DNA from: Candidatus Thorarchaeota archaeon
GTDB lineage: Archaea > Asgardarchaeota > Thorarchaeia > Thorarchaeales > Thorarchaeaceae
Length of the DNA stretch: 32,000 nucleotides
Direction: 5' to 3'
NCBI GenBank assembly: GCA_008080745.1
Contig: SHMX01000003.1
Location: 420,001-452,000, forward strand
In this document: in pieces, positions 5,146 to 15,760 of the stretch
Layout of the letters: every line of letters begins with the position of its first letter
Position numbering within the stretch: the stretch's first letter is position 1
Program-made: the position numbers and the translations under genes
Notes under the pieces: generated by a model
The model's database searches: none
Told to the model about the DNA's origin: nothing
What the model saw: only the letters and a program-made list of their open reading frames with translations

Positions 5146-6060
5146 ATGAAAGATATGAACGAGTTTGATGAAATGCTCCTCTTAGCAGCAGAAACAGGAC
5201 AAGCAGGAGTGATTGAGATTGCGTTGATGGAAGGTGCCTCATTGGACGTAACTGATGAATTCTTCAAAAATACTGCATTACATATTGCAGCGAGTAAGGG
5301 ATACTTAGACGTTGTAAAGGTGTTAGTAGAAAAGGGAGCTAAAATTCTGGTAAAAAATGGTACTGATTTCACACCAATTCATTTAGCGGCTAGAGACGGT
5401 CACACTGAGATCGTGAGGTTTCTTCTTAAACAGGTCGACAAGATAGAGAGTCGTATACTCATGGATATCATTAATGTAGCACAGATGTCGTATACAGGAA
5501 AACCTGAGATAGTGGAGATGCTTTACAAATATAGAGCATATGTTGCAGAGCCTTCAATATCTGATCTGAGTGATGTGGATACGGAATTGCTATTAGCCTC
5601 CTATTCGGGAGATGTAGCAAAGGTAAAGACATCACTGAATAATGGAGCAAACATTGAGGTTGTATGTGGTCGAGGTATGACTCCTTTGATTTGGGCGTCA
5701 CTACGTGGGAAAATCGAGGTCGTCAAAGAGCTTGTTAAACAGGGTGCAGATATTAACTCTACAAATCGTGCTGGATGGACACCGCTCTTTCAAGCATCTG
5801 CCTGGGGACATCTAGATCTGGTGAAATTCCTTCTTGAAAACAATGCGGACCCAAACATGAAGACAGAATATTCCGAGACTGCAATGATGTTTGCTGCACG
5901 AGAGGGGTACATTGAGATAGTGATGGCCCTTCTGGAGGCTGGAGCAGACCCACATATCGCAATGGAATGTGACGATGAAGAGAATGGAAGAACCGCTCTC
6001 ATTTGGGCAAGAATCAAAGGTCATTCAGAAATCGTAGAATTGTTAGAGGAAAGGAGTTAA
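5146..6060 (+). CDS. Ankyrin-repeat protein (about 9 repeats in two blocks)
   Basis: Canonical repeats TALHIAASKGYLDVVKVLVEKGA, TPIHLAARDGHTEIVRFLL, TPLIWASLRGKIEVVKELVKQGADIN, TPLFQASAWGHLDLVKFLLENNADPN. Confidence 0.95.
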   Translation: MKDMNEFDEMLLLAAETGQAGVIEIALMEGASLDVTDEFFKNTALHIAASKGYLDVVKVLVEKGAKILVKNGTDFTPIHLAARDGHTEIVRFLLKQVDKIESRILMDIINVAQMSYTGKPEIVEMLYKYRAYVAEPSISDLSDVDTELLLASYSGDVAKVKTSLNNGANIEVVCGRGMTPLIWASLRGKIEVVKELVKQGADINSTNRAGWTPLFQASAWGHLDLVKFLLENNADPNMKTEYSETAMMFAAREGYIEIVMALLEAGADPHIAMECDDEENGRTALIWARIKGHSEIVELLEERS

Positions 6061-6685: not shown

Positions 6686-8836
6686 TCAGTTCTTAGGTAT
6701 TATTAGTTTGAAGACTGTATCTTTTCCAGATTCCAGACTGATTTCCCACCCATGAGCTGCGGCAATCTTTAGTATTATCTGAAATCCTTTACCTCGCCCA
6801 TGTTTACAGGAATACCCCTTATGTAATAAGACAGCCTGAATCTCTTGAGGGATAGGTGTACCATCATTCTTGAAGATAAGTTCATATTGATAAGGGGCAT
6901 CTACGACGCGAATTTCGATTGAATTAGGTGAGCCATGTTCTACCGCGTTTAGTAACATGTTATGAACCAGCTGAACCATCCGCTCTCGGTCACATGAAAT
7001 GGTAGGAAGGTCATCTCGTTCAAATAGAATATTTTTTGGAATTATATTGGATGAGATAGAATCGATAATTTCATTCAAATCCACCTCTGTTTTATTTCCA
7101 ATTACCGCTCCAGCATCTGCCAGCTCTACAGACTTGTCCAGAATGCGAAGAGCATCATAGGATAGTGTTTCGATTCTATCAAGATATTCCTCGTCATATT
7201 CACCCTTGAGAAGTTGAGTCAGACCAACGATATTGCTAAAATAACCTCGAATATCATGTGCAATCATATGTGCAAAATCCCCAAGCTCCTCACGTTGTGC
7301 CCGAATACTGTGTTCAATTTCTTTTCGTTCCGTAATATCTTGAGCAAAACCAATGCTTCGAATTACGGTCCCCTCATCGTTTCTAACATGAAATCCACGA
7401 GCATGAATCCATCTCACTGTGCCAGATTTGATTATACGAAATTCTGTATCATATTTTTTGTCGTCTTCAAAATGTCTTCGTATCTCCAGCAAAATTCTCT
7501 CTCGATCATCAGGATGAATCACATTTAGGAATGTAGTATCATCTGTTTTTGCAGTTTCAGAATCAATTCCGAAAATCCTTTCAAATCCTGGACTCAGATA
7601 GATAGTATCGAAAGGGGGATTTAACTCGGTAATCCAGAATGCCTCATCAATATTATCAGCAAATTGTGTAAACCAGCTTTCAGTTTTCTGCAAGGAGTCT
7701 AGTAGTCTCTTTCGATCAGTGATATCCAATTGGGCTGCAAGGATTGCTGGTTGACCATCAAACGTAGTCATTGTGACTCTGACGTCCATCCATCTCACTT
7801 GTTCTCGACTATTAATCAAGCGATACTGATATCGTTCGGGTACTGAAAGGCCTTTGTTTCGTTTCTCCAATTGTTCTACGAGTCGTTCCCGGTCCTCAGA
7901 ATGGATTGATTCTAGCATCTTTTTCCGGTCCAGTTCAAGCAAGTCATTCACTGAACAAGCCATAATCTCAGCCATAGCTTTGTTAGCGTATAGAACCTTC
8001 ATATCGTTTATAGAAAAGATTATGATACCTTGAAGTGAATCATCGATAATTTGCTGATATTTTGTATCGCTTCTCTTGAGTTTCTGTTGAGATTCTTTCC
8101 ATTCTGTGATATCTTGAACAATACCCAAGATGCTTTTTTCATCTCCATGAAGAGATAATGTGAGTGAATACCATCTTGTGCCCTCCTCTATTTCTAGCTC
8201 ATATTCTAGGTATCGTTGTTGTCCATCCTCCCGTACTTTTTTCTGAGCTTCAAGGAACATAGATTGAACAGGTTCTGGTGTGACCTCACTTACGTGTTTG
8301 CCAAGGAATTCTTCAGGAGGGAGTAGAGGAGAAATTTTAGGAGAATCATAGAACTCTATGTAATTGTCGTTTTCATCTATGATAAACACCATTGCATCAA
8401 TCACCTCTGCAAGCTGTTTATACCGCTGTTGAGAAAGAATGAGATCCTGAAGTGCACGAGTATATTCAGCGGAATTGATGATAATATGTGCTAATTCAGC
8501 ATATTGAACAGCAGGATCACCTTCTTTCTTAACATACTGGGTCGCACCTAAGTTGAGAGCCTTGATAGCTACCTCCTCACGTGACATTCCAGTAAACACT
8601 ATTATTGGGAGAATCTCATTTTTCTCACGTAAAATACGTAATAAGTCAAGTCCATTCATTGGGCTCATCTCATAATCTGTGACCAGCACATCGAAATCCA
8701 TTGTATCAATAACCTCAATGGCTTTCTCTGCAGAATCTACGGTGGTCACTTCCAGCTCAGCGTGTTTTTGCAAGAATCGCCTAGCAATAACTAGTGTATC
8801 GGGATCATCATCAACAAAAAGCACCTGCAGGACCAT
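6686..8836 (-). CDS. Hybrid sensor histidine kinase REC-PAS-PAS-PAS-HisKA-HATPase
   Basis: REC (VLFVDDD, VLVTDYEMSPMNG, KK), three PAS/PAC units (IVQDITEWK, QLDITDRK, FAQDITERK), H-box AHDIR, N-box NMLLNAVEH, KNDG and GRGKGF boxes. Confidence 0.93.
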   Translation of the reverse strand: MVLQVLFVDDDPDTLVIARRFLQKHAELEVTTVDSAEKAIEVIDTMDFDVLVTDYEMSPMNGLDLLRILREKNEILPIIVFTGMSREEVAIKALNLGATQYVKKEGDPAVQYAELAHIIINSAEYTRALQDLILSQQRYKQLAEVIDAMVFIIDENDNYIEFYDSPKISPLLPPEEFLGKHVSEVTPEPVQSMFLEAQKKVREDGQQRYLEYELEIEEGTRWYSLTLSLHGDEKSILGIVQDITEWKESQQKLKRSDTKYQQIIDDSLQGIIIFSINDMKVLYANKAMAEIMACSVNDLLELDRKKMLESIHSEDRERLVEQLEKRNKGLSVPERYQYRLINSREQVRWMDVRVTMTTFDGQPAILAAQLDITDRKRLLDSLQKTESWFTQFADNIDEAFWITELNPPFDTIYLSPGFERIFGIDSETAKTDDTTFLNVIHPDDRERILLEIRRHFEDDKKYDTEFRIIKSGTVRWIHARGFHVRNDEGTVIRSIGFAQDITERKEIEHSIRAQREELGDFAHMIAHDIRGYFSNIVGLTQLLKGEYDEEYLDRIETLSYDALRILDKSVELADAGAVIGNKTEVDLNEIIDSISSNIIPKNILFERDDLPTISCDRERMVQLVHNMLLNAVEHGSPNSIEIRVVDAPYQYELIFKNDGTPIPQEIQAVLLHKGYSCKHGRGKGFQIILKIAAAHGWEISLESGKDTVFKLIIPKN

Positions 8837-10681: not shown

Positions 10682-12649
10682 TTATCTCTTTCTACTTACC
10701 ATAAAGACATCAGAACGTGGGACAAATGCACCTTTTAGAAACCTACGAAGAAGTTCGATCATTGCCCCACGTCGTATTCCTTGTTCCTTAGCAAATGTTG
10801 TAACTGGTATAGCCCCGGATTCTTCGGTCATCTCATGCAATTTGAGTATCCAGTCACGTGTAACAATCACCCCCGCTTTTGCAACAAATACATCCTCATC
10901 ATCAAGCCGAGTTCTTATTCGACTGGATAGGTCTGAATAATCTACTCTTAGACGTCTTGAAGTAATCATGAGGTCATAGCTGCCTTTAGTATCCAGGGCC
11001 CATCTCATCAGACTGAAGATAGTATCAATAGAGATTAGGGTACCGGTTGTACTTACTAAGGCATCCAGTGAAAGACTACTGATAATCTGGCGTACATCCG
11101 AAGGATCGAGCATTCTTTCTCTGGCTTCTTTCCCCGGGTCCAAGACACCTTTTGCTGTAAAGATTTGTTTGAGTTCACGTTTTAGTTTGGATACGGGAAC
11201 CAGTCCACCATTGGAATTCATGACAGCATCAGAATCAATCTGAGCTAATAGAGCCTGAGCAATACCGACCGTTATATTGTATTTCTCAACTAGAGTAGTA
11301 GGGTCGACCGACTCACCAGAATCTAATGAACATGTAATCTTCGTTCTTGCCCAAGAGATTGAAAGGTGGTCTCCCGATTTGTTGGATACCGTTCTCATTC
11401 CAAATTCCTTGAGTAGAATATTTAGAGTAGGATTAGTTATACCCCATTCATCCTCAACGGAATCTATAGATATTATTCCATCCTCAGATATTTCATCTAG
11501 TAGCCAACGGCGGAATACTGCTGTTGATATGTATTTTCCACGTCCGATAGTTCTGGCATTTTCATTATTGCGAAGAATAGTTTCTACGATTCTTGCATCA
11601 ATACCTAGATTGTCAGCTTCTTGGTGTACTTCTATTCTTCCTGTAAGGGTCAGATTATCTAATACGCGTTCTTTTAGATAATCGTAAGTCACGATAATTC
11701 CATCATCATCTACAAAGAATTTCTTTCCTGTCCTTCGAACAATTTTCATGAGTGCATCTTGATCTATACACAGTTGTTTTGCCTCGGTAACGGGATTCAG
11801 ATAACCCTCTGATTCAAGAAGGCATTCCAAACGATTAGCGACAATATGAACAGGAAGTAGTCTATGATCTGTTGTCTGTATAACAGACCAACCAAACCTC
11901 CTCATTGCCTCTATGATATCACGTTCGGTAACAGCCAATCTCATTGCCTCCATACTAGGCTCAATAAACCCACTTTTTTCCATTGAACGTTCTAATGTGC
12001 TCCTTAGCCAATCAGTAGAAACAAGAAATCCATTCCCCATTTCGATAAGATTCCAACCCCATCTCTCAACCAAACGAACAAGATCGAAACGCTTTACATG
12101 AAGACGCTGAGCCTCTGAAGTGACATTGATTCGTCCTTGAAGACCAATGACTTCTCTCATGCGCTCCTTAAATTCAGGTACCAATATGTAATCGCCATCT
12201 TCGGTCTGAACAACATCTAAACCCTCTCGGTTTGTGATGACCGCCACTAAATTTTCTATGATAACTTCAGAGATGTCCCACATTGCAGATTCTTTTGCAA
12301 CATGAATTACATGATTATCTACAAGGAGATTATGAAGACGTCTAATAAGCAAGGTTGACGATACTACAGAAGATTTGCTAAAACTCAGTATTGCATTTTC
12401 TGCGTGTCGTGCTGTGTAGATAACAGAGAGAATAGATATGTCCTTTCTGTCAAGTCTAGAGGTGAGTTCGGATACGGATAATGTCATATTAGTAGTTAGT
12501 AACTGCTCCAGCTTTCTGATACGTCGATTTCTTATCCTCTGAATCCAGAAGAAAACACCACCAATAAGGATAAGAAAAAGAATTGCTGCTAGTACAAGGG
12601 ATAGGATAACATCATTACCCAGTATCTGCACTAGCATCTTTCTATCCAA
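10682..12649 (-). CDS. Single-pass membrane protein with about 11 tandem ~55-aa winged-helix-like repeats (UFL1/DDRGK1-like)
   Basis: N-terminal TM (VILSLVLAAILFLILIGGVFFWI) followed by a basic stretch, then recurring G-h-h-x-h-xx-ea-xx-l-x-h...G-x-h-h units. TTG start at 12649 abuts the ATPase stop; alternative ATG at 12637. Confidence 0.7.
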   Translation of the reverse strand: MDRKMLVQILGNDVILSLVLAAILFLILIGGVFFWIQRIRNRRIRKLEQLLTTNMTLSVSELTSRLDRKDISILSVIYTARHAENAILSFSKSSVVSSTLLIRRLHNLLVDNHVIHVAKESAMWDISEVIIENLVAVITNREGLDVVQTEDGDYILVPEFKERMREVIGLQGRINVTSEAQRLHVKRFDLVRLVERWGWNLIEMGNGFLVSTDWLRSTLERSMEKSGFIEPSMEAMRLAVTERDIIEAMRRFGWSVIQTTDHRLLPVHIVANRLECLLESEGYLNPVTEAKQLCIDQDALMKIVRRTGKKFFVDDDGIIVTYDYLKERVLDNLTLTGRIEVHQEADNLGIDARIVETILRNNENARTIGRGKYISTAVFRRWLLDEISEDGIISIDSVEDEWGITNPTLNILLKEFGMRTVSNKSGDHLSISWARTKITCSLDSGESVDPTTLVEKYNITVGIAQALLAQIDSDAVMNSNGGLVPVSKLKRELKQIFTAKGVLDPGKEARERMLDPSDVRQIISSLSLDALVSTTGTLISIDTIFSLMRWALDTKGSYDLMITSRRLRVDYSDLSSRIRTRLDDEDVFVAKAGVIVTRDWILKLHEMTEESGAIPVTTFAKEQGIRRGAMIELLRRFLKGAFVPRSDVFMVSRKR

Positions 12650-15577
12650 CTACAAGGTTTCTCCTTTATCTCTCAGACTCTTTTTGTACAGTTCTAGACC
12701 AACAATGGTTGGGGCTGCAAATAGAATACATATGAGCCAATCCATCCAGCTCAAAGGTATGAAGTAAAAGTGCAGTCCAAATGGAGCAAGTATGGCTTGT
12801 GCGATTGGAACATACATGAGTAATAGATGAGCTAGATAGATGAGTCCAAGCAATATGACATAGCGAATGATTCCAGGTTCCAGAATTCCCTTTGTAACTG
12901 GCATATTGATTCTTCTGATTAGAAGAACGAGAGAGCTCTCCAGTAGCAAAATGACAGTCAGTAACATGGTCCGAGCCTTTGCAAATGGGTCGATTTCCAT
13001 AAATGGTTGATTATTGATTGGATTTATCGCTTCGTGATAGAAACCACCATAATTGTCAATATTCATTGGAATAATTTGCCAAAGTGTCATGGTAAATAAT
13101 GCAGCTGCACCAATAACCATTAGAACAACGTTCAATGTCATAAATTTAGCTATCGGGCGAGTAATGATCTCTTGGCTATCACGCGGTTTCTCTTCCATGG
13201 CTCGTGGTGATGTCTTATCAAAGACCAATGCCAAACCAGGGAAGGAATGGGTGGTAACGACAAGATACAGGCTCTGCCATTGAGAGAGAAAGTTAATGAT
13301 GTCCGGCATCAGGAACATAGCACCGAAGAAGATAATACTCTCAAACAGATTAATAGCGATATAGAAGTATATCATCATTCTAATTTTATTGAAAAGTCCT
13401 CGGCCTTGATGAACACCAGTCACAATTGATGCAAAACTATCATCGGTAATAACCAGGTCAGCAGCTTCCTTAGCAACATCTGTACCAGTTATACCCATGG
13501 CAATTCCTGCATCACTCATGGCCAAGGCAAGAGCGTCATTTACTCCATCACCAGTCATTGCAACAACTTTTCCATCGTCTTGGTATCGTTCTACAATGAC
13601 CTGTTTGTGTTCAGGGTTAACTCTAGCAAAAACATTGACACGGAGGAAATTATCATTACTAAGAGATTCTATCTCTCCTCCTTCAATAGCTAAAGAGTCC
13701 GGTCCGTAGATGTTGAGATTACGAGCAATTGTTTTTGCTGTGGCTGCTGCGTCCCCTGTAATCATAATAACATTGATACCAGCACTGTGACAGGCGTTTA
13801 CAGCCTCTTTTACACCATCACGTGGTGGATCAACAATACAAGTAAAACCAAGATATACAAGATTGGATTCAACATCATCACGGTTTGTATCACTGCTGGC
13901 AGAGTTCATCTCCTTCTTAGCAAGAGAAATAACTCGATATCCCTCTTCAGCATATTTGGTTGTAATTTCTCTGATTTTTTCAATATCTGCCTGAGACATT
14001 TTTCGTTCGTTAGCGTTCCCTCCAATTTTGGTGCATCTTGGCAGCAAGACTTCGGTCGCACCCTTAACAAATGCGACATATTTGCCATCTGCCTCACACA
14101 CTTTGGACATACGTTTGAGTTCTGATTCGAACGGATACTCCGCAATGATTTTGTATTTCTCTTTTACCTCAGCTTCGTCAATTCCGCTTTTTCTGAAAAA
14201 GGTGAGTAGTGCAGCGTCCGTTGGATCTCCAAGGGGCTTCCAATCGATTCCTTGACCAGGTAGTTCCTTCTTTACTATCTCAGCATCATTATTGACACCC
14301 GCACATAATAGCATCTGATAGAGGCCTTTCCAAGCATATACATCACTTACAAGTACTGAGTCTGCTTCGCTAGGATTTTTCATGAATGATTCATCTTTCA
14401 TCCTATACAATTCACCTTCAGGGACGTATCCTGCACCAGATATTGTATAGAGATTTTCAGAATCCCAAGCGATGGTGACGGTCATTTGATTCCGGGTCAT
14501 GGTACCCGTCTTATCACTACAAATAATGCTTACACGACCTAAACTCTCAACAGCTGAGAGATCACGAATAATGACTCCTTTCTTAGCCATTGCAAGCACT
14601 CCAGTAAGAAGAACAATGGTGGTAAGCAAAGGAATATTGATGGGCATGATAGTCATAGCTTTTGTAATCCCAGATGTCAATGCTGCAGTCAATGATGGTG
14701 CTTCAAGTCCGGGATATATGAAAGGTGCAATAATCAAGACCCATAGCACTGATGTAGCCATTAAGCCAATCGAGGCAATTCCCAAAAATTTCGCTAGAAG
14801 GTTTACCTTCTTCCGTAATGGAATATCACCTGTGTTCAATGACTCTAGAGTACCTTGGATTTTACCAATCTCTGTATGCCCACCGGTTGTGGTTGCGACT
14901 GCTTTTGCAGTACCAGTAGCTACATAGGTGCCAAAGAAGACCATATTGCGCATATCAGTAAGAGGGACATCCTCTGATACTTTTACATCGCTATTTTTGG
15001 TAACAGGAACACTTTCTCCTGTTAGAGAAGCCTCATTTGCTGTGAAATTAGAACATTGAATAATTCTTCCATCAACAGGAATCTTATCACCCTGCTCTAA
15101 AATGAGAATATCACCAGGGACAATTTCATGTGGTTCAATCTTCATCTGATGCCCGTCACGGATGACTCTCGATTCGCCTGCAGAAAGTTTCTCCAACGCC
15201 TCAAGTTTCTTTTGTGCTCGAAATTGTTGAAAGATTGCAACAATGCAGTTGACTCCAACGACAGCCAGCCATACAGCTGCTTGAGCAAGCTGATTGCTTT
15301 CAGTTGGTGGAGCTGTAACAGCGAGGATAATCAAAGCTATAGAGCTTAAAAGATAGATATTGATAAGCCAATTCAGAATTGGAGCAAGGTACACCTTCCA
15401 AAAAGATCCCTTAATTTTAGGAATGATATTTGGACCATACTCTTTTTGCCGGTCCTTCACTTGTTGTGCAGAGAGTCCAGTATTAGGATCGGTGTCTAAT
15501 TTTCGAAAAGTTTCATCGAGACTAAGAGCATGGAATTCTTCGCCATGACTGTTGGTGGATTTTTCCTCAGTAATCAT
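12650..15577 (-). CDS. P-type ATPase, P2A (SERCA/PMR1)-like scaffold with a non-canonical transport site
   Basis: LTGES, CSDKTGT, KGATE, DPPR, MITGD, FARVNPEHK and MTGDGVNDA motifs; about 10 TMs. GAGGGA SD supports the ATG at 15577 (the ORF extends to 15616). Substrate uncertain. Confidence 0.93.
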   Translation of the reverse strand: MITEEKSTNSHGEEFHALSLDETFRKLDTDPNTGLSAQQVKDRQKEYGPNIIPKIKGSFWKVYLAPILNWLINIYLLSSIALIILAVTAPPTESNQLAQAAVWLAVVGVNCIVAIFQQFRAQKKLEALEKLSAGESRVIRDGHQMKIEPHEIVPGDILILEQGDKIPVDGRIIQCSNFTANEASLTGESVPVTKNSDVKVSEDVPLTDMRNMVFFGTYVATGTAKAVATTTGGHTEIGKIQGTLESLNTGDIPLRKKVNLLAKFLGIASIGLMATSVLWVLIIAPFIYPGLEAPSLTAALTSGITKAMTIMPINIPLLTTIVLLTGVLAMAKKGVIIRDLSAVESLGRVSIICSDKTGTMTRNQMTVTIAWDSENLYTISGAGYVPEGELYRMKDESFMKNPSEADSVLVSDVYAWKGLYQMLLCAGVNNDAEIVKKELPGQGIDWKPLGDPTDAALLTFFRKSGIDEAEVKEKYKIIAEYPFESELKRMSKVCEADGKYVAFVKGATEVLLPRCTKIGGNANERKMSQADIEKIREITTKYAEEGYRVISLAKKEMNSASSDTNRDDVESNLVYLGFTCIVDPPRDGVKEAVNACHSAGINVIMITGDAAATAKTIARNLNIYGPDSLAIEGGEIESLSNDNFLRVNVFARVNPEHKQVIVERYQDDGKVVAMTGDGVNDALALAMSDAGIAMGITGTDVAKEAADLVITDDSFASIVTGVHQGRGLFNKIRMMIYFYIAINLFESIIFFGAMFLMPDIINFLSQWQSLYLVVTTHSFPGLALVFDKTSPRAMEEKPRDSQEIITRPIAKFMTLNVVLMVIGAAALFTMTLWQIIPMNIDNYGGFYHEAINPINNQPFMEIDPFAKARTMLLTVILLLESSLVLLIRRINMPVTKGILEPGIIRYVILLGLIYLAHLLLMYVPIAQAILAPFGLHFYFIPLSWMDWLICILFAAPTIVGLELYKKSLRDKGETL

Positions 15578-15760
15578 CGCTGTCCCTCTTGGAGTGTGAA
15601 TATTGGATATAATCACAGCAGATAAATGAAATTGTAATCAACTGATAAGTGTGCATTTCGTATCCGATAGAGAATGCTGCACCTTTTGAGTCTTTTCAGC
15701 TTGTTTCGATAAGTTCATGTAAGTTCTTTACCTGAGTGTTTCAAGATTGAGGTAAAACCA

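What the first reader, a model, noticed from the sequence alone, without database searches (positions are those of the whole stretch)
10682..12649. Membrane-anchored chain of about 11 winged-helix repeats resembling a UFL1-DDRGK1 fusion
Seen: a TM plus basic stop-transfer, then ~55-aa repeats, e.g. QGRINVTSEAQRLHV, SGFIEPSMEAMRLAV, EGYLNPVTEAKQLCI, TGRIEVHQEADNLGI, DGIISIDSVEDEWGI, KGVLDPGKEARERML, SGAIPVTTFAKEQGI, each followed by a beta-wing (DGDYIL, GNGFLV, DDDGIIV, GRGKYIS, NGGLVP, KAGVIV). From memory, EDGDYILVPEFKERMREVIGLQGRINV closely parallels the human UFL1 N-terminus ([28 protein letters not shown]), and TIGRGKYIS echoes the DDRGKFIYI motif of DDRGK1. Established: the eukaryotic UFM1 E3 ligase is a WH-repeat scaffold (UFL1) tethered to the ER by the N-terminal TM of DDRGK1, and it clamps the 60S ribosome at the translocon. 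I believe UFL1 homologues have been noted in Asgard archaea before. Inference: the single-chain TM plus extended WH array may be an ancestral membrane ribosome/quality-control scaffold.
Basis: partly seen in the sequence, partly recalled or inferred. Interest (0 to 1): 0.8.

Follow-up and report, generated by a model that had tools for sequence, protein, structure and literature searches.

The report
Membrane-anchored UFL1-like winged-helix rod
An Asgard (Thorarchaeota-type) archaeon encodes a single-pass membrane protein that hangs eleven winged-helix domains, related to the scaffold of the eukaryotic UFM1 ligase UFL1, under its membrane, although this lineage has no detectable UFM1 system or E2 enzyme, so the scaffold probably does something other than protein tagging.

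Summary
Window 10682-12649 (-) is a 655-aa ORF with one N-terminal TM helix, a basic stop-transfer stretch and 11 complete winged-helix (WH) domains (AF2 pLDDT 88.8). WH2-WH11 are homologous to each other by sequence.

The DDRGK1 half is a likeness of layout only, with no sequence match.

The 'ancestral' claim is weak. The family was found in 22 of 76 genomes of one Asgard family, between a P2-type ATPase gene and panB. Other Asgard lineages carry stronger-scoring soluble UFL1-like proteins.

The own genome has no detectable UFC1, UfSP or UBC E2. UBC E2 was found in 1 of 76 genomes of this family, against 208 of 225 other Asgard genomes.

Best reading: a non-catalytic scaffold under the membrane, partner unknown. 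Ribosome docking is untested.

Asgard UFL1/DDRGK1 homologues are published, and this scan has already noted UFL1-like tails on Asgard surface proteins on other DNA. This is a new variant of a known kind.

The parts
10682..12649 (-). Whole gene, 655 aa (stop codon 10682-10684). Start at TTG 12649, or possibly the ATG at 12637.
12611..12649 (-). Short N-terminal tail (residues 1-13), predicted to lie outside the cell
   Evidence: Positive-inside rule from the sequence. Relatives with a signal peptide and an ectodomain before the TM show the same orientation.
12542..12610 (-). Single transmembrane helix (residues 14-36), followed by the basic stretch QRIRNRRIRK
   Evidence: Kyte-Doolittle peak 3.06. 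A hydrophobic N-terminal segment passes the hydropathy threshold in most full-length relatives. Helix 12-50 in the model.
12359..12541 (-). WH1 (residues 37-97). Its alpha1 is the continuation of the TM helix. It is divergent and has no sequence likeness to the other repeats.
12173..12358 (-). WH2 (residues 98-159), a complete winged helix. Its alpha3-beta2-beta3 half aligns with the partial WH (pWH) at the N-terminus of UFL1. Acidic (net -7).
12017..12172 (-). WH3 (residues 160-211). Aligns with UFL1 WH1. Together with WH11 it is the most conserved unit of the family.
12089..12286 (-). Segment with significant sequence similarity to the human UFL1 N-terminus (residues 122-187). The Pfam PF09743 match covers residues 124-195.
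11852..12016 (-). WH4 (residues 212-266)
11687..11851 (-). WH5 (residues 267-321)
11525..11686 (-). WH6 (residues 322-375). Its wing hairpin carries GRGKYIS.
11360..11524 (-). WH7 (residues 376-430)
11195..11359 (-). WH8 (residues 431-485)
11030..11194 (-). WH9 (residues 486-540)
10859..11029 (-). WH10 (residues 541-597)
10685..10858 (-). WH11 (residues 598-655). Basic (net +5) and highly conserved. Residues 450-651 (WH8-WH11) are the part shared with distant relatives that carry ectodomains.
12650..15616 (-). Context only: the upstream P2-type cation ATPase on the same strand, with its stop codon abutting the TTG. It is probably co-transcribed but is not an obligate partner.

Best explanation
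The gene encodes a type-I-like (N-out, C-in) single-pass membrane protein. Its cytoplasmic part, about 620 residues, is an unbroken chain of 11 winged-helix domains of the UFL1/PCI type, and the model shows no long linker between the membrane helix and the first domain. It is a lineage-specific, divergent member of the Asgard UFL1-like WH-array superfamily (Pfam PF09743).

Its layout is colinear with the eukaryotic UFBP1(DDRGK1)-UFL1 pair: a membrane anchor, a WH, a WH that in eukaryotes is split between the two proteins, then more WHs. Here it is all one chain.

Most likely it is a non-catalytic docking scaffold on the inner face of the membrane. It would hold one or more large partners through its two best-conserved surfaces, the WH2 wing with WH3 (the segment alignable to the UFL1 pWH-WH1 region) and the basic terminal WH11. 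It would not be a UFM1 ligase, because neither this genome nor its family has a detectable UFC1, UfSP or any UBC-type E2.

Shown: the anatomy, the topology signals, the homology to UFL1, the lack of an E2 and the distribution. Inferred: the scaffold role and which surfaces are the docking sites. The partner is unknown; the large ribosomal subunit is the leading guess by analogy only.
For: Anatomy: one TM plus 11 winged helices at pLDDT 88.8. Repeats WH2-WH11 are mutually homologous.

Homology to UFL1:
- PF09743 scores above its gathering cut-off for this protein.
- In the 14 family members scanned, 12 gave a PF09743 hit at E up to 0.1, and 7 of them scored at or above the cut-off. In 9 of the 12 the register is the same, family residues about 112-136 against profile positions 11-30. 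The best member scores 51 bits, E 2e-13.
- The only PDB sequence hit of the family profile is the DDRGK1-UFL1 chimera 8b9x, E 1.4e-4.
- The Foldseek top five are UFL1 or the chimera, at 2.4e-12 to 3.3e-8.
- The nearest ESM Atlas structural neighbours are an Asgard PCI/UFL1/DDRGK cluster, then eukaryotic UFL1 clusters.
- hhalign to the Loki-type UFL1/DDRGK-like protein gives 90.7% probability, E 1.2e-6.

Cytoplasmic orientation: basic residues follow the TM. Relatives have a signal peptide, a PKD/Ig/beta-helix ectodomain, a TM and then the same WH array.

Not an E3 of the UFM1 type:
- The own genome (98% complete) has no hits for Ufm1, UFC1, Peptidase_C78, UQ_con or ubiquitin.
- UQ_con is found in 208 of 225 other Asgard genomes but in 1 of 76 of this family.
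- UFC1 is found in 5 of 225 other Asgard genomes and 0 of 76 of this family.

Protein scaffold rather than nucleic-acid binder: the cytoplasmic part has pI 6.5 and a net acidic charge.

The gene is under selection: full-length homologues at 32-68% identity sit in conserved synteny.
Confidence: 0.65

Rival explanations
1. It is an unsplit, pre-fission form of the UFBP1(DDRGK1)-UFL1 clamp. Anchored in the membrane, it wraps the large ribosomal subunit at or near the Sec translocon and helps dock, release or recycle membrane-bound ribosomes without any UFM1 tagging.
For: The layout is colinear with UFBP1-UFL1 (TM, WH1', composite pWH'/pWH, WH1 to WH5; PMC9627666). The family's WH2 is a complete domain exactly where eukaryotes split it. 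In human UREL, the UFL1 winged helices WH1 and WH2 contact eL13 and other 60S proteins (PMC10937380), and this genome encodes eL13. Picchianti et al. already proposed a UFM1-independent ancestral function for Asgard UFL1/DDRGK1 (PMC10183829).
Against: The ribosome-gripping parts of UREL are absent: the UFL1 CTD and PTC loop, the long UFBP1 helix with its UFIM, and CDK5RAP3. The protein ends with WH11, and the TM runs directly into WH1. There is no DDRGK sequence signal. The distribution is narrow and patchy, 22 of 76 genomes of one family, which is odd for a basic ribosome-handling factor. Related arrays sit on receptor-like proteins and on soluble Vps28/PCI fusions. No ribosome-binding test was made.
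Confidence: 0.15
2. It is an accessory or regulatory single-pass subunit of the P2-type cation ATPase encoded immediately upstream. This would be comparable in principle to phospholamban, FXYD or beta subunits, tethering or regulating the pump.
For: The genes are on the same strand, and the ATPase stop codon abuts the TTG start. The ATPase gene directly precedes the WH gene in all five homologous loci examined, down to 32% identity, and overlaps it by 20 nt in one. The genome hits show the same adjacency in other genomes. Single-TM partners of P-type ATPases are known (general knowledge).
Against: The orthologous ATPase (59-85% identity) is present in 71 of 76 family genomes. In all five genomes examined from genera that lack the WH gene, panB follows the ATPase directly, so the pump does not need this protein. 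The whole block (S8 peptidase, ATPase, panB, DUF1858, SCP2) is syntenic, so adjacency may simply be inherited. Three other TM-anchored UFL1-like array proteins are not next to an ATPase.
Confidence: 0.1
3. It is a membrane-tethered nucleic-acid-binding protein. Its winged-helix-turn-helix units would hold DNA or RNA at the membrane or act as a membrane-bound regulator.
Against: The array as a whole is acidic to neutral (pI 6.5; WH2, WH7 and WH8 are strongly acidic). The multi-domain matches are to protein scaffolds (UFL1) rather than DNA binders. No HTH family reaches its Pfam cut-off in this protein.
Confidence: 0.06
4. It is a scaffold-type E3 for a non-UBC ubiquitin-like system, for example a SAMP/Urm1-type modifier activated by the single ThiF-type E1, or a divergent Asgard Ufm1-like protein.
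For: The best-conserved segment coincides with the UFL1 pWH-WH1 region that forms the minimal ligase domain in eukaryotes (PMC9627666). The genome has one ThiF-family E1-like gene. Structural Ufm1 homologues are reported in nine Asgard clades (PMC12962969), and the Pfam model cannot see them.
Against: No E2 of any UBC or UFC1 type was found in the genome, and only one weak UQ_con hit in the 76 genomes of its family. The N-terminal helix of UFL1 (residues 1-25) that precedes the pWH is absent, and its place is taken by WH1 and the first half of WH2. No UfSP protease was found.
Confidence: 0.04

Closest known systems
Eukaryotic UFL1 (E3 UFM1-protein ligase 1; Pfam PF09743; PDB 8qfc, 8ohd, 9gy4, 8b9x, 8c0d)
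   Same: Both are tandem PCI-like winged helices whose alpha1 helices form a helical backbone. There is significant sequence similarity over UFL1 pWH-WH1, and UFL1 is the best fold match.
   Different: This protein has 11 winged helices, against a partial one plus five. It has no N-terminal helix (UFL1 residues 1-25), no C-terminal helical region, CTD or PTC loop. It carries its own TM anchor. Its WH2 is complete rather than a half-domain that needs a partner. The lineage has no UFM1, UFC1, UfSP or UBC E2.
Eukaryotic DDRGK1/UFBP1 (Pfam PF09756), the ER-membrane anchor of UFL1
   Same: Both have an N-terminal TM anchor with the winged helices in the cytoplasm. The position upstream of the UFL1-like segment is the same, so that TM-WH1-(first half of WH2) stands where TM-NTR-WH1'-pWH' stands in UFBP1 (PMC9627666).
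   Different: There is no sequence similarity. There is no long charged helical NTR, ribosome-docking helix or UFIM; the TM helix runs straight into WH1.
Loki-type Asgard UFL1/DDRGK/PCI-like proteins of about 790-800 aa (the 'E3 UFM1-protein ligase 1' fusion proteins of Liu et al., bioRxiv 10.1101/2020.10.19.343400; locus L013)
   Same: The WH array is homologous (hhalign 90.7%, E 1.2e-6), and this is the nearest ESM Atlas structural cluster.
   Different: Those proteins are soluble. They have N-terminal zinc ribbons, only about 4-5 winged helices, a beta-rich middle domain and a Vps28-like C-terminus. They score much higher against PF09743 (74 bits) and also match DDRGK (56 bits) and PCI. They were found in 62 of 68 genomes of another Asgard family.
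Asgard receptor-like proteins with UFL1-like cytoplasmic tails (P0028, P0031, P0040; loci L036, L037; earlier scan notes e1-3065052, e1-5382838, e1-5448472)
   Same: Both have a single TM followed at once by the same kind of WH array. The TM-proximal part of L036 and L037 aligns with residues 12-169 of this protein, and the C-terminal WH8-WH11 module is shared.
   Different: Those proteins carry large PKD, Ig or beta-helix ectodomains and fewer winged helices. This protein has only a 13-residue outside tail and the longest array.
Other tandem-WH scaffolds: SelB C-terminal WH1-4, RPC82/RPC62, ESCRT-II (Vps22/25/36), PCI subunits of the proteasome lid and CSN
   Same: They share the winged-helix fold and its tandem arrangement.
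   Different: They are far weaker matches (Foldseek 1.5e-4 to 6e-3, against 2e-12 for UFL1). There are no Pfam hits to PCI, EAP30 or SelB WH domains, and no GTPase or helical-repeat parts.

Membership tests
UFL1 / PF09743 E3_UFM1_ligase | Sequence match to the family profile above the curated cut-off | tested here: met
   25.7 bits against a cut-off of 23.2, E 1.1e-5, residues 124-195 against profile 19-92. Of the 14 family members scanned, 12 gave a hit at E up to 0.1, and 7 of them scored at or above the cut-off, up to 51 bits. The family profile hits the UFL1 part of 8b9x at E 1.4e-4.
UFL1 / PF09743 E3_UFM1_ligase | Tandem PCI-like winged helices with an alpha1 helical backbone | tested here: met
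UFL1 / PF09743 E3_UFM1_ligase | Free N-terminal helix (UFL1 residues 1-25) ahead of the pWH in the minimal ligase region (PMC9627666) | tested here: not met
   The Pfam alignment starts at profile position 19. Upstream of it lie WH1 and the first half of WH2, not a free helix.
UFL1 / PF09743 E3_UFM1_ligase | Partial WH (pWH) that must be completed by the pWH' of DDRGK1 | tested here: not met
   WH2 (residues 98-159) is a complete alpha1-beta1-alpha2-alpha3-beta2-beta3 domain in one chain.
UFL1 / PF09743 E3_UFM1_ligase | C-terminal helical region/CTD with the PTC loop that occupies the tRNA sites of the 60S (PMC10937380) | tested here: not met
   The protein ends with WH11 at residue 655. There is no further domain and no hit to any other UFL1 C-terminal Pfam model.
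UFL1 / PF09743 E3_UFM1_ligase | Cognate UFM1, UFC1 and UfSP in the same genome | tested here: not met
   PF03671, PF08694 and PF07910 find nothing credible in the 98%-complete genome. UFC1 is found in 0 of 76 family genomes and 5 of 225 other Asgard genomes. Caveat: the Pfam Ufm1 model finds nothing in any Asgard genome, so a divergent Ufm1-like protein is not excluded.
UFL1 / PF09743 E3_UFM1_ligase | Scaffold-type E3 activity (stimulates discharge of UFC1~UFM1) | not testable with these tools
   This needs biochemistry. No UBC-type E2 was detected in the lineage.
DDRGK1 / UFBP1 (PF09756) | N-terminal TM anchor with a cytoplasmic WH part | tested here: met
   TM at residues 14-36 followed by basic residues. 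A hydrophobic N-terminal segment passes the hydropathy threshold in most full-length relatives.
DDRGK1 / UFBP1 (PF09756) | Sequence match to the DDRGK domain | tested here: not met
   No PF09756 hit at E up to 10. A profile of residues 37-127 finds no DDRGK1 chain in the PDB and no DDRGK Pfam hit in any of the 11 members.
DDRGK1 / UFBP1 (PF09756) | Long charged helical N-terminal region with the ribosome-docking helix and UFIM | tested here: not met
   Only about 14 helical residues lie between the TM and beta1 of WH1.
PCI-domain proteins (PF01399) | PCI profile match, with helical repeats preceding a single C-terminal WH | tested here: not met
ESCRT-II (EAP30/Vps25) | Tandem WH pair matching the EAP30 or ESCRT-II profiles or structures better than other WH scaffolds | tested here: not met
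   Foldseek gives 6e-3 (2zme_B) against 2.4e-12 for UFL1. There is no Pfam hit in this protein.

The most novel reading that the evidence does not exclude
This family preserves the unsplit state of the UFBP1(DDRGK1)-UFL1 scaffold. In that state one membrane-anchored chain of winged helices already worked at the archaeal cell membrane, for instance in docking or release of the large ribosomal subunit at the translocon, before UFM1, UFC1 and the ER existed. Eukaryotes would later have split it inside WH2 and added the ligase and ribosome-clamp modules.
Probability: 0.1. Interest if true: 0.85.

Novelty: new variant of a known kind. Interest (0 to 1): 0.5.

Why it matters
UFL1 and DDRGK1 have no catalytic motif. 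They are thought to pre-date UFM1 and to have had a UFM1-independent job in Asgard archaea (PMC10183829), and that job is unknown.

This family is a clean natural test case. It is a membrane-anchored, single-chain UFL1-type array in a lineage where no UBC or UFC1-type E2 is detectable. Whatever it binds should report what the scaffold does in the absence of a detectable tagging system.

The full WH2, at the place where eukaryotes have a composite domain made from two proteins, also gives a concrete model for how the DDRGK1-UFL1 interface could have arisen by gene fission.

Against this, the family is narrow and its function is unproven. The general point, that Asgard archaea have UFL1-like arrays, some on membrane proteins, is already known.

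Tried and rejected
- NCBIfam gave no family. A single-sequence phmmer search of the PDB gave only a chance SDR hit at E 0.28.
- PF09743 searched over the six-frame own genome gave no hit at the genome-wide E threshold, although the protein itself passes the Pfam cut-off. This is a sensitivity difference between the two searches, not a contradiction.
- The weak DDRGK Pfam hits in the own genome turned out to be generic WH proteins, not DDRGK1 orthologues: an eS25-like WH with a K/E-rich tail and an HhH motif, and two small TM-plus-WH proteins.
- The Pfam Ufm1 model found nothing in any of 301 Asgard genomes, so that negative says nothing about the structural Ufm1 homologues reported in the literature.
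- Sequencing runs: only two DNA runs of one marine-sediment study hold the stretch, and they may be its source. No RNA holder is listed, so co-transcription with the ATPase could not be examined.
- The ESM Atlas search by features returned no usable hit.
- The structural register against UFL1 could not be fixed. Foldseek and VIA-align slide along the repeats; for example, 8b9x aligns best to residues 211-435.
- Complex prediction was not used. No specific partner is claimed. The ATPase plus this protein exceeds the size limit, and an isolated ribosomal protein (eL13) seemed a poor stand-in for a ribosome surface.
Full report
**What is there**

Window 10682-12649 (minus strand) is one open frame of 655 codons. 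It begins at a TTG that directly follows the TAG stop of the upstream gene. An ATG four codons later aligns with the starts of homologues and may be the true start.

The product has a single strongly hydrophobic stretch, residues 14-36 (Kyte-Doolittle peak 3.06), followed by QRIRNRRIRK.

An AlphaFold2 model built on 13 family sequences is confident (mean pLDDT 88.8; pTM 0.50, as expected for a long rod). It shows the TM helix (12-50) running straight into the first of 11 complete winged helices, each alpha1-beta1-alpha2-alpha3-beta2-beta3, up to the last residue.

Profile-profile comparison of the 11 units, cut out of the family alignment, shows that WH2 to WH11 are homologous to each other. 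The best pair scores E 5.5e-13, and 21 of 55 pairs reach 80% probability or more. WH1 is a winged helix by structure only.

**What it is related to**

- Pfam gives one family above its curated cut-off, PF09743 (E3 UFM1-protein ligase 1): 25.7 bits against 23.2, residues 124-195 against profile positions 19-92.
- Of the 14 family members scanned, 12 gave a PF09743 hit at E up to 0.1. In 9 of those the register is the same N-terminal one; in 3 the match slips to another repeat. The best member reaches 51 bits.
- A profile of the family finds exactly one sequence in the PDB, the engineered human DDRGK1-UFL1 chimera 8b9x (E 1.4e-4).
- Foldseek ranks UFL1 chains from the 60S complexes first (8qfc_B 2.4e-12, 8ohd_A, 9gy4_E), then the chimera (1.4e-8). 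RPC82 (1.5e-4), SelB (8e-4) and ESCRT-II (6e-3) follow well behind.
- The ESM Atlas model of this very protein has as nearest structural neighbours an Asgard cluster annotated PCI/E3_UFM1_ligase/DDRGK, and then two eukaryotic UFL1 clusters.

The stated refutation condition, a better match to PCI, ESCRT-II or DNA-binding wHTH, is not met for the array as a whole. Single repeats, however, are generic winged helices.

**The DDRGK1 half**

Peter et al. (PMC9627666) describe UFBP1/DDRGK1 as TM, long helical NTR, WH1' and pWH'. They describe UFL1 as N-terminal helix, pWH, five winged helices and a C-terminal region, with pWH' and pWH forming one composite WH.

By the sequence register above, the UFL1 pWH (alpha3-beta2-beta3) falls on the second half of WH2 here. 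TM-WH1-(first half of WH2) therefore stands where UFBP1 stands, and WH2 is a complete domain in one chain. This is a real colinearity of layout.

It is not supported by sequence. No PF09756 hit was found for the protein. A profile of residues 37-127 finds neither DDRGK1 chains in the PDB nor the DDRGK Pfam family in any of 11 members. The 'GRGKYIS' echo is the wing hairpin of WH6, a motif shared by most repeats. The weak DDRGK hits elsewhere in the genome are generic WH proteins.

**Distribution and relatives**

An exhaustive HMMER search of 1.84 billion representative proteins finds 17 near-full-length relatives at E below 1e-30 and a handful of partial or distant ones. The named ones come from Thorarchaeota-labelled MAGs (one is labelled Lokiarchaeota).

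Among 301 Asgard genomes, clear orthologues occur only in the window's own GTDB family, in 22 of 76 genomes. They are present in every sampled genome of some genera (5 of 5, 6 of 6) and absent from others (0 of 25, 0 of 14).

PF09743 itself hits 107 of the 301 genomes. It is strongest (E 1e-13 to 1e-20) in another family (62 of 68), in soluble proteins of about 790-800 aa. One of these (L013) has N-terminal cysteine-rich motifs (by eye), four to five winged helices that match PF09743 (74 bits), DDRGK (56 bits) and PCI, and a Vps28-like end. This is the fusion architecture noted by Liu et al. (bioRxiv 10.1101/2020.10.19.343400). It is homologous to the present array (hhalign 90.7%, E 1.2e-6).

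Further relatives are receptor-like. They have a signal peptide, PKD/Ig/beta-helix ectodomains, one TM, and then the WH array (P0028, P0031, P0040). The same layout occurs in the own family and in another Asgard family, where the TM-proximal part aligns with residues 12-169 of this protein (L036, L037).

So the UFL1-like array is a recurrent Asgard module for the cytoplasmic side of membrane proteins, and this family is its longest form, without an ectodomain. Earlier notes of this scan describe such tails on other DNA, including a broken copy elsewhere in this same genome.

**Genomic context**

The gene sits between a P2-type cation ATPase and panB. The ATPase's best PDB relatives are LMCA1, SPCA and SERCA.

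The order S8 peptidase (divergent), ATPase, WH gene, panB, DUF1858, SCP2 is kept in five homologous loci down to 32% identity. Gaps between the ATPase and the WH gene are 14-42 nt, and in one locus the genes overlap by 20 nt. Co-transcription is therefore likely.

The orthologous ATPase is present in 71 of 76 family genomes. In five genomes from genera without the WH gene, panB follows the ATPase directly. Three other TM-anchored arrays are not next to an ATPase. The pump therefore does not need this protein. The 'two-component machine' idea of a parallel first-stage note is possible but weakly supported.

**Is it a UFM1 ligase?**

The own genome (98% complete) has no credible match to Ufm1, UFC1, the UfSP peptidase, UBC-type E2 or ubiquitin. 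It has one ThiF-type E1-like gene.

The controls matter here. UQ_con is found in 208 of 225 Asgard genomes outside this family but in 1 of 76 inside it, and that one hit is weak. UFC1 is found in 5 of 225 outside and 0 of 76 inside. By contrast, the Pfam Ufm1 model finds nothing in any Asgard genome, although structural Ufm1 homologues are reported in nine Asgard clades (PMC12962969). That negative is therefore uninformative.

The protein also lacks the N-terminal helix of UFL1 (residues 1-25) and the CTD and PTC loop. A UFL1-like E3 mechanism, which works by activating a charged E2 (PMC9627666), has no detectable E2 to act on in this lineage.

**How it most likely works**

Shown:
- an N-out/C-in single-pass topology signal;
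- a long rigid-looking WH array directly under the membrane;
- homology to a known protein-docking scaffold;
- purifying selection along the whole length;
- two conservation maxima, the WH2 wing with WH3 (which coincides with UFL1 pWH-WH1) and the basic WH11;
- an overall acidic to neutral array (pI 6.5), which argues against a bulk nucleic-acid binder.

Inferred: it is a non-catalytic platform under the membrane that recruits one or more large partners. By analogy with UREL, whose WH1 and WH2 contact eL13 and which clamps the 60S at the translocon (PMC10937380), the large ribosomal subunit is the leading candidate. The modules that grip the ribosome in eukaryotes are absent, however, and nothing here tests it. 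I put this specific reading at about 0.15. The ATPase-subunit, nucleic-acid-tether and non-UBC E3 readings rank lower.

**Novelty and verdict**

It is published that Asgard archaea have UFL1- and DDRGK1-like proteins that pre-date UFM1 and may act independently of it (PMC10183829; bioRxiv 10.1101/2020.10.19.343400). Five literature searches found no description of this TM-anchored, 11-WH single-chain family or of its colinearity with UFBP1-UFL1. The library does not cover subscription-only papers.

It is a new variant of a known kind. It is interesting as a natural UFL1-type scaffold in a lineage where no E2 is detectable, and as a model for the composite WH. Its distribution is narrow and its function unproven. 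The claim that it is ancestral is not supported by its distribution.

Noticed in passing
window 12650-15616 (-): A 988-aa P2-type cation ATPase whose closest solved relatives are Listeria LMCA1, SPCA and SERCA. The own genome holds at least two further paralogues at about 35% identity (C2:560778-563522 and C4:57952-60687). Its TAG stop and the TTG of the WH gene are adjacent and in the same frame. In a homologous locus (L007) the two genes instead overlap by 20 nt in different frames, so the in-frame arrangement is not conserved.
   Followed up: partly
whole genomes: own GTDB family against the rest of the phylum: UBC-type E2 (PF00179) is found in 208 of 225 Asgard genomes outside the window's family, but in only 1 of 76 inside it, and that hit is weak. 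This points to a near-complete lineage-wide absence of canonical E2 enzymes.
   Followed up: partly
L013 436-2799 (-) (another Asgard family, G171): A soluble 788-aa protein with N-terminal cysteine-rich motifs and winged helices that match PF09743 (74 bits), DDRGK (56 bits) and PCI at once. It also has a Vps28-like C-terminus. It is present in 62 of 68 genomes of that family. It is probably what published UFL1 and DDRGK1 HMM searches pick up in Asgard archaea.
   Followed up: partly
L036 1737-4055 (-) and L037 1765-5562 (-): Receptor-like relatives with a signal peptide, an ectodomain and one TM, followed by a UFL1-like WH array. The TM-proximal part of the array aligns with residues 12-169 of the protein studied here. 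One is from the own family and one from a different Asgard family.
   Followed up: partly
L003 895-1776 (-) (own genome, C1): A 294-aa ORF with an eS25-like winged helix, a long Lys/Glu-rich low-complexity stretch and a C-terminal helix-hairpin-helix. It is the source of the best (spurious) DDRGK Pfam hit in the genome.
   Followed up: no
L024 1270-1740 (-) (own genome, C1): The eL13 homologue appears to carry a C-terminal helix-hairpin-helix-like extension, judged by eye from the translation.
   Followed up: no
L004 1246-1674 (-) and L005 1372-2115 (-) (own genome): Small membrane proteins that combine one or two winged helices with two or three TM segments. L005 also has a C-terminal zinc ribbon. 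Membrane-tethered winged helices seem common in this genome.
   Followed up: no
window 5146-6060 (+) and 6686-8836 (-): An ankyrin-repeat protein (304 aa) lies next to a hybrid response-regulator/PAS/histidine-kinase protein (716 aa). An ankyrin protein also lies near the homologous locus L012.
   Followed up: no
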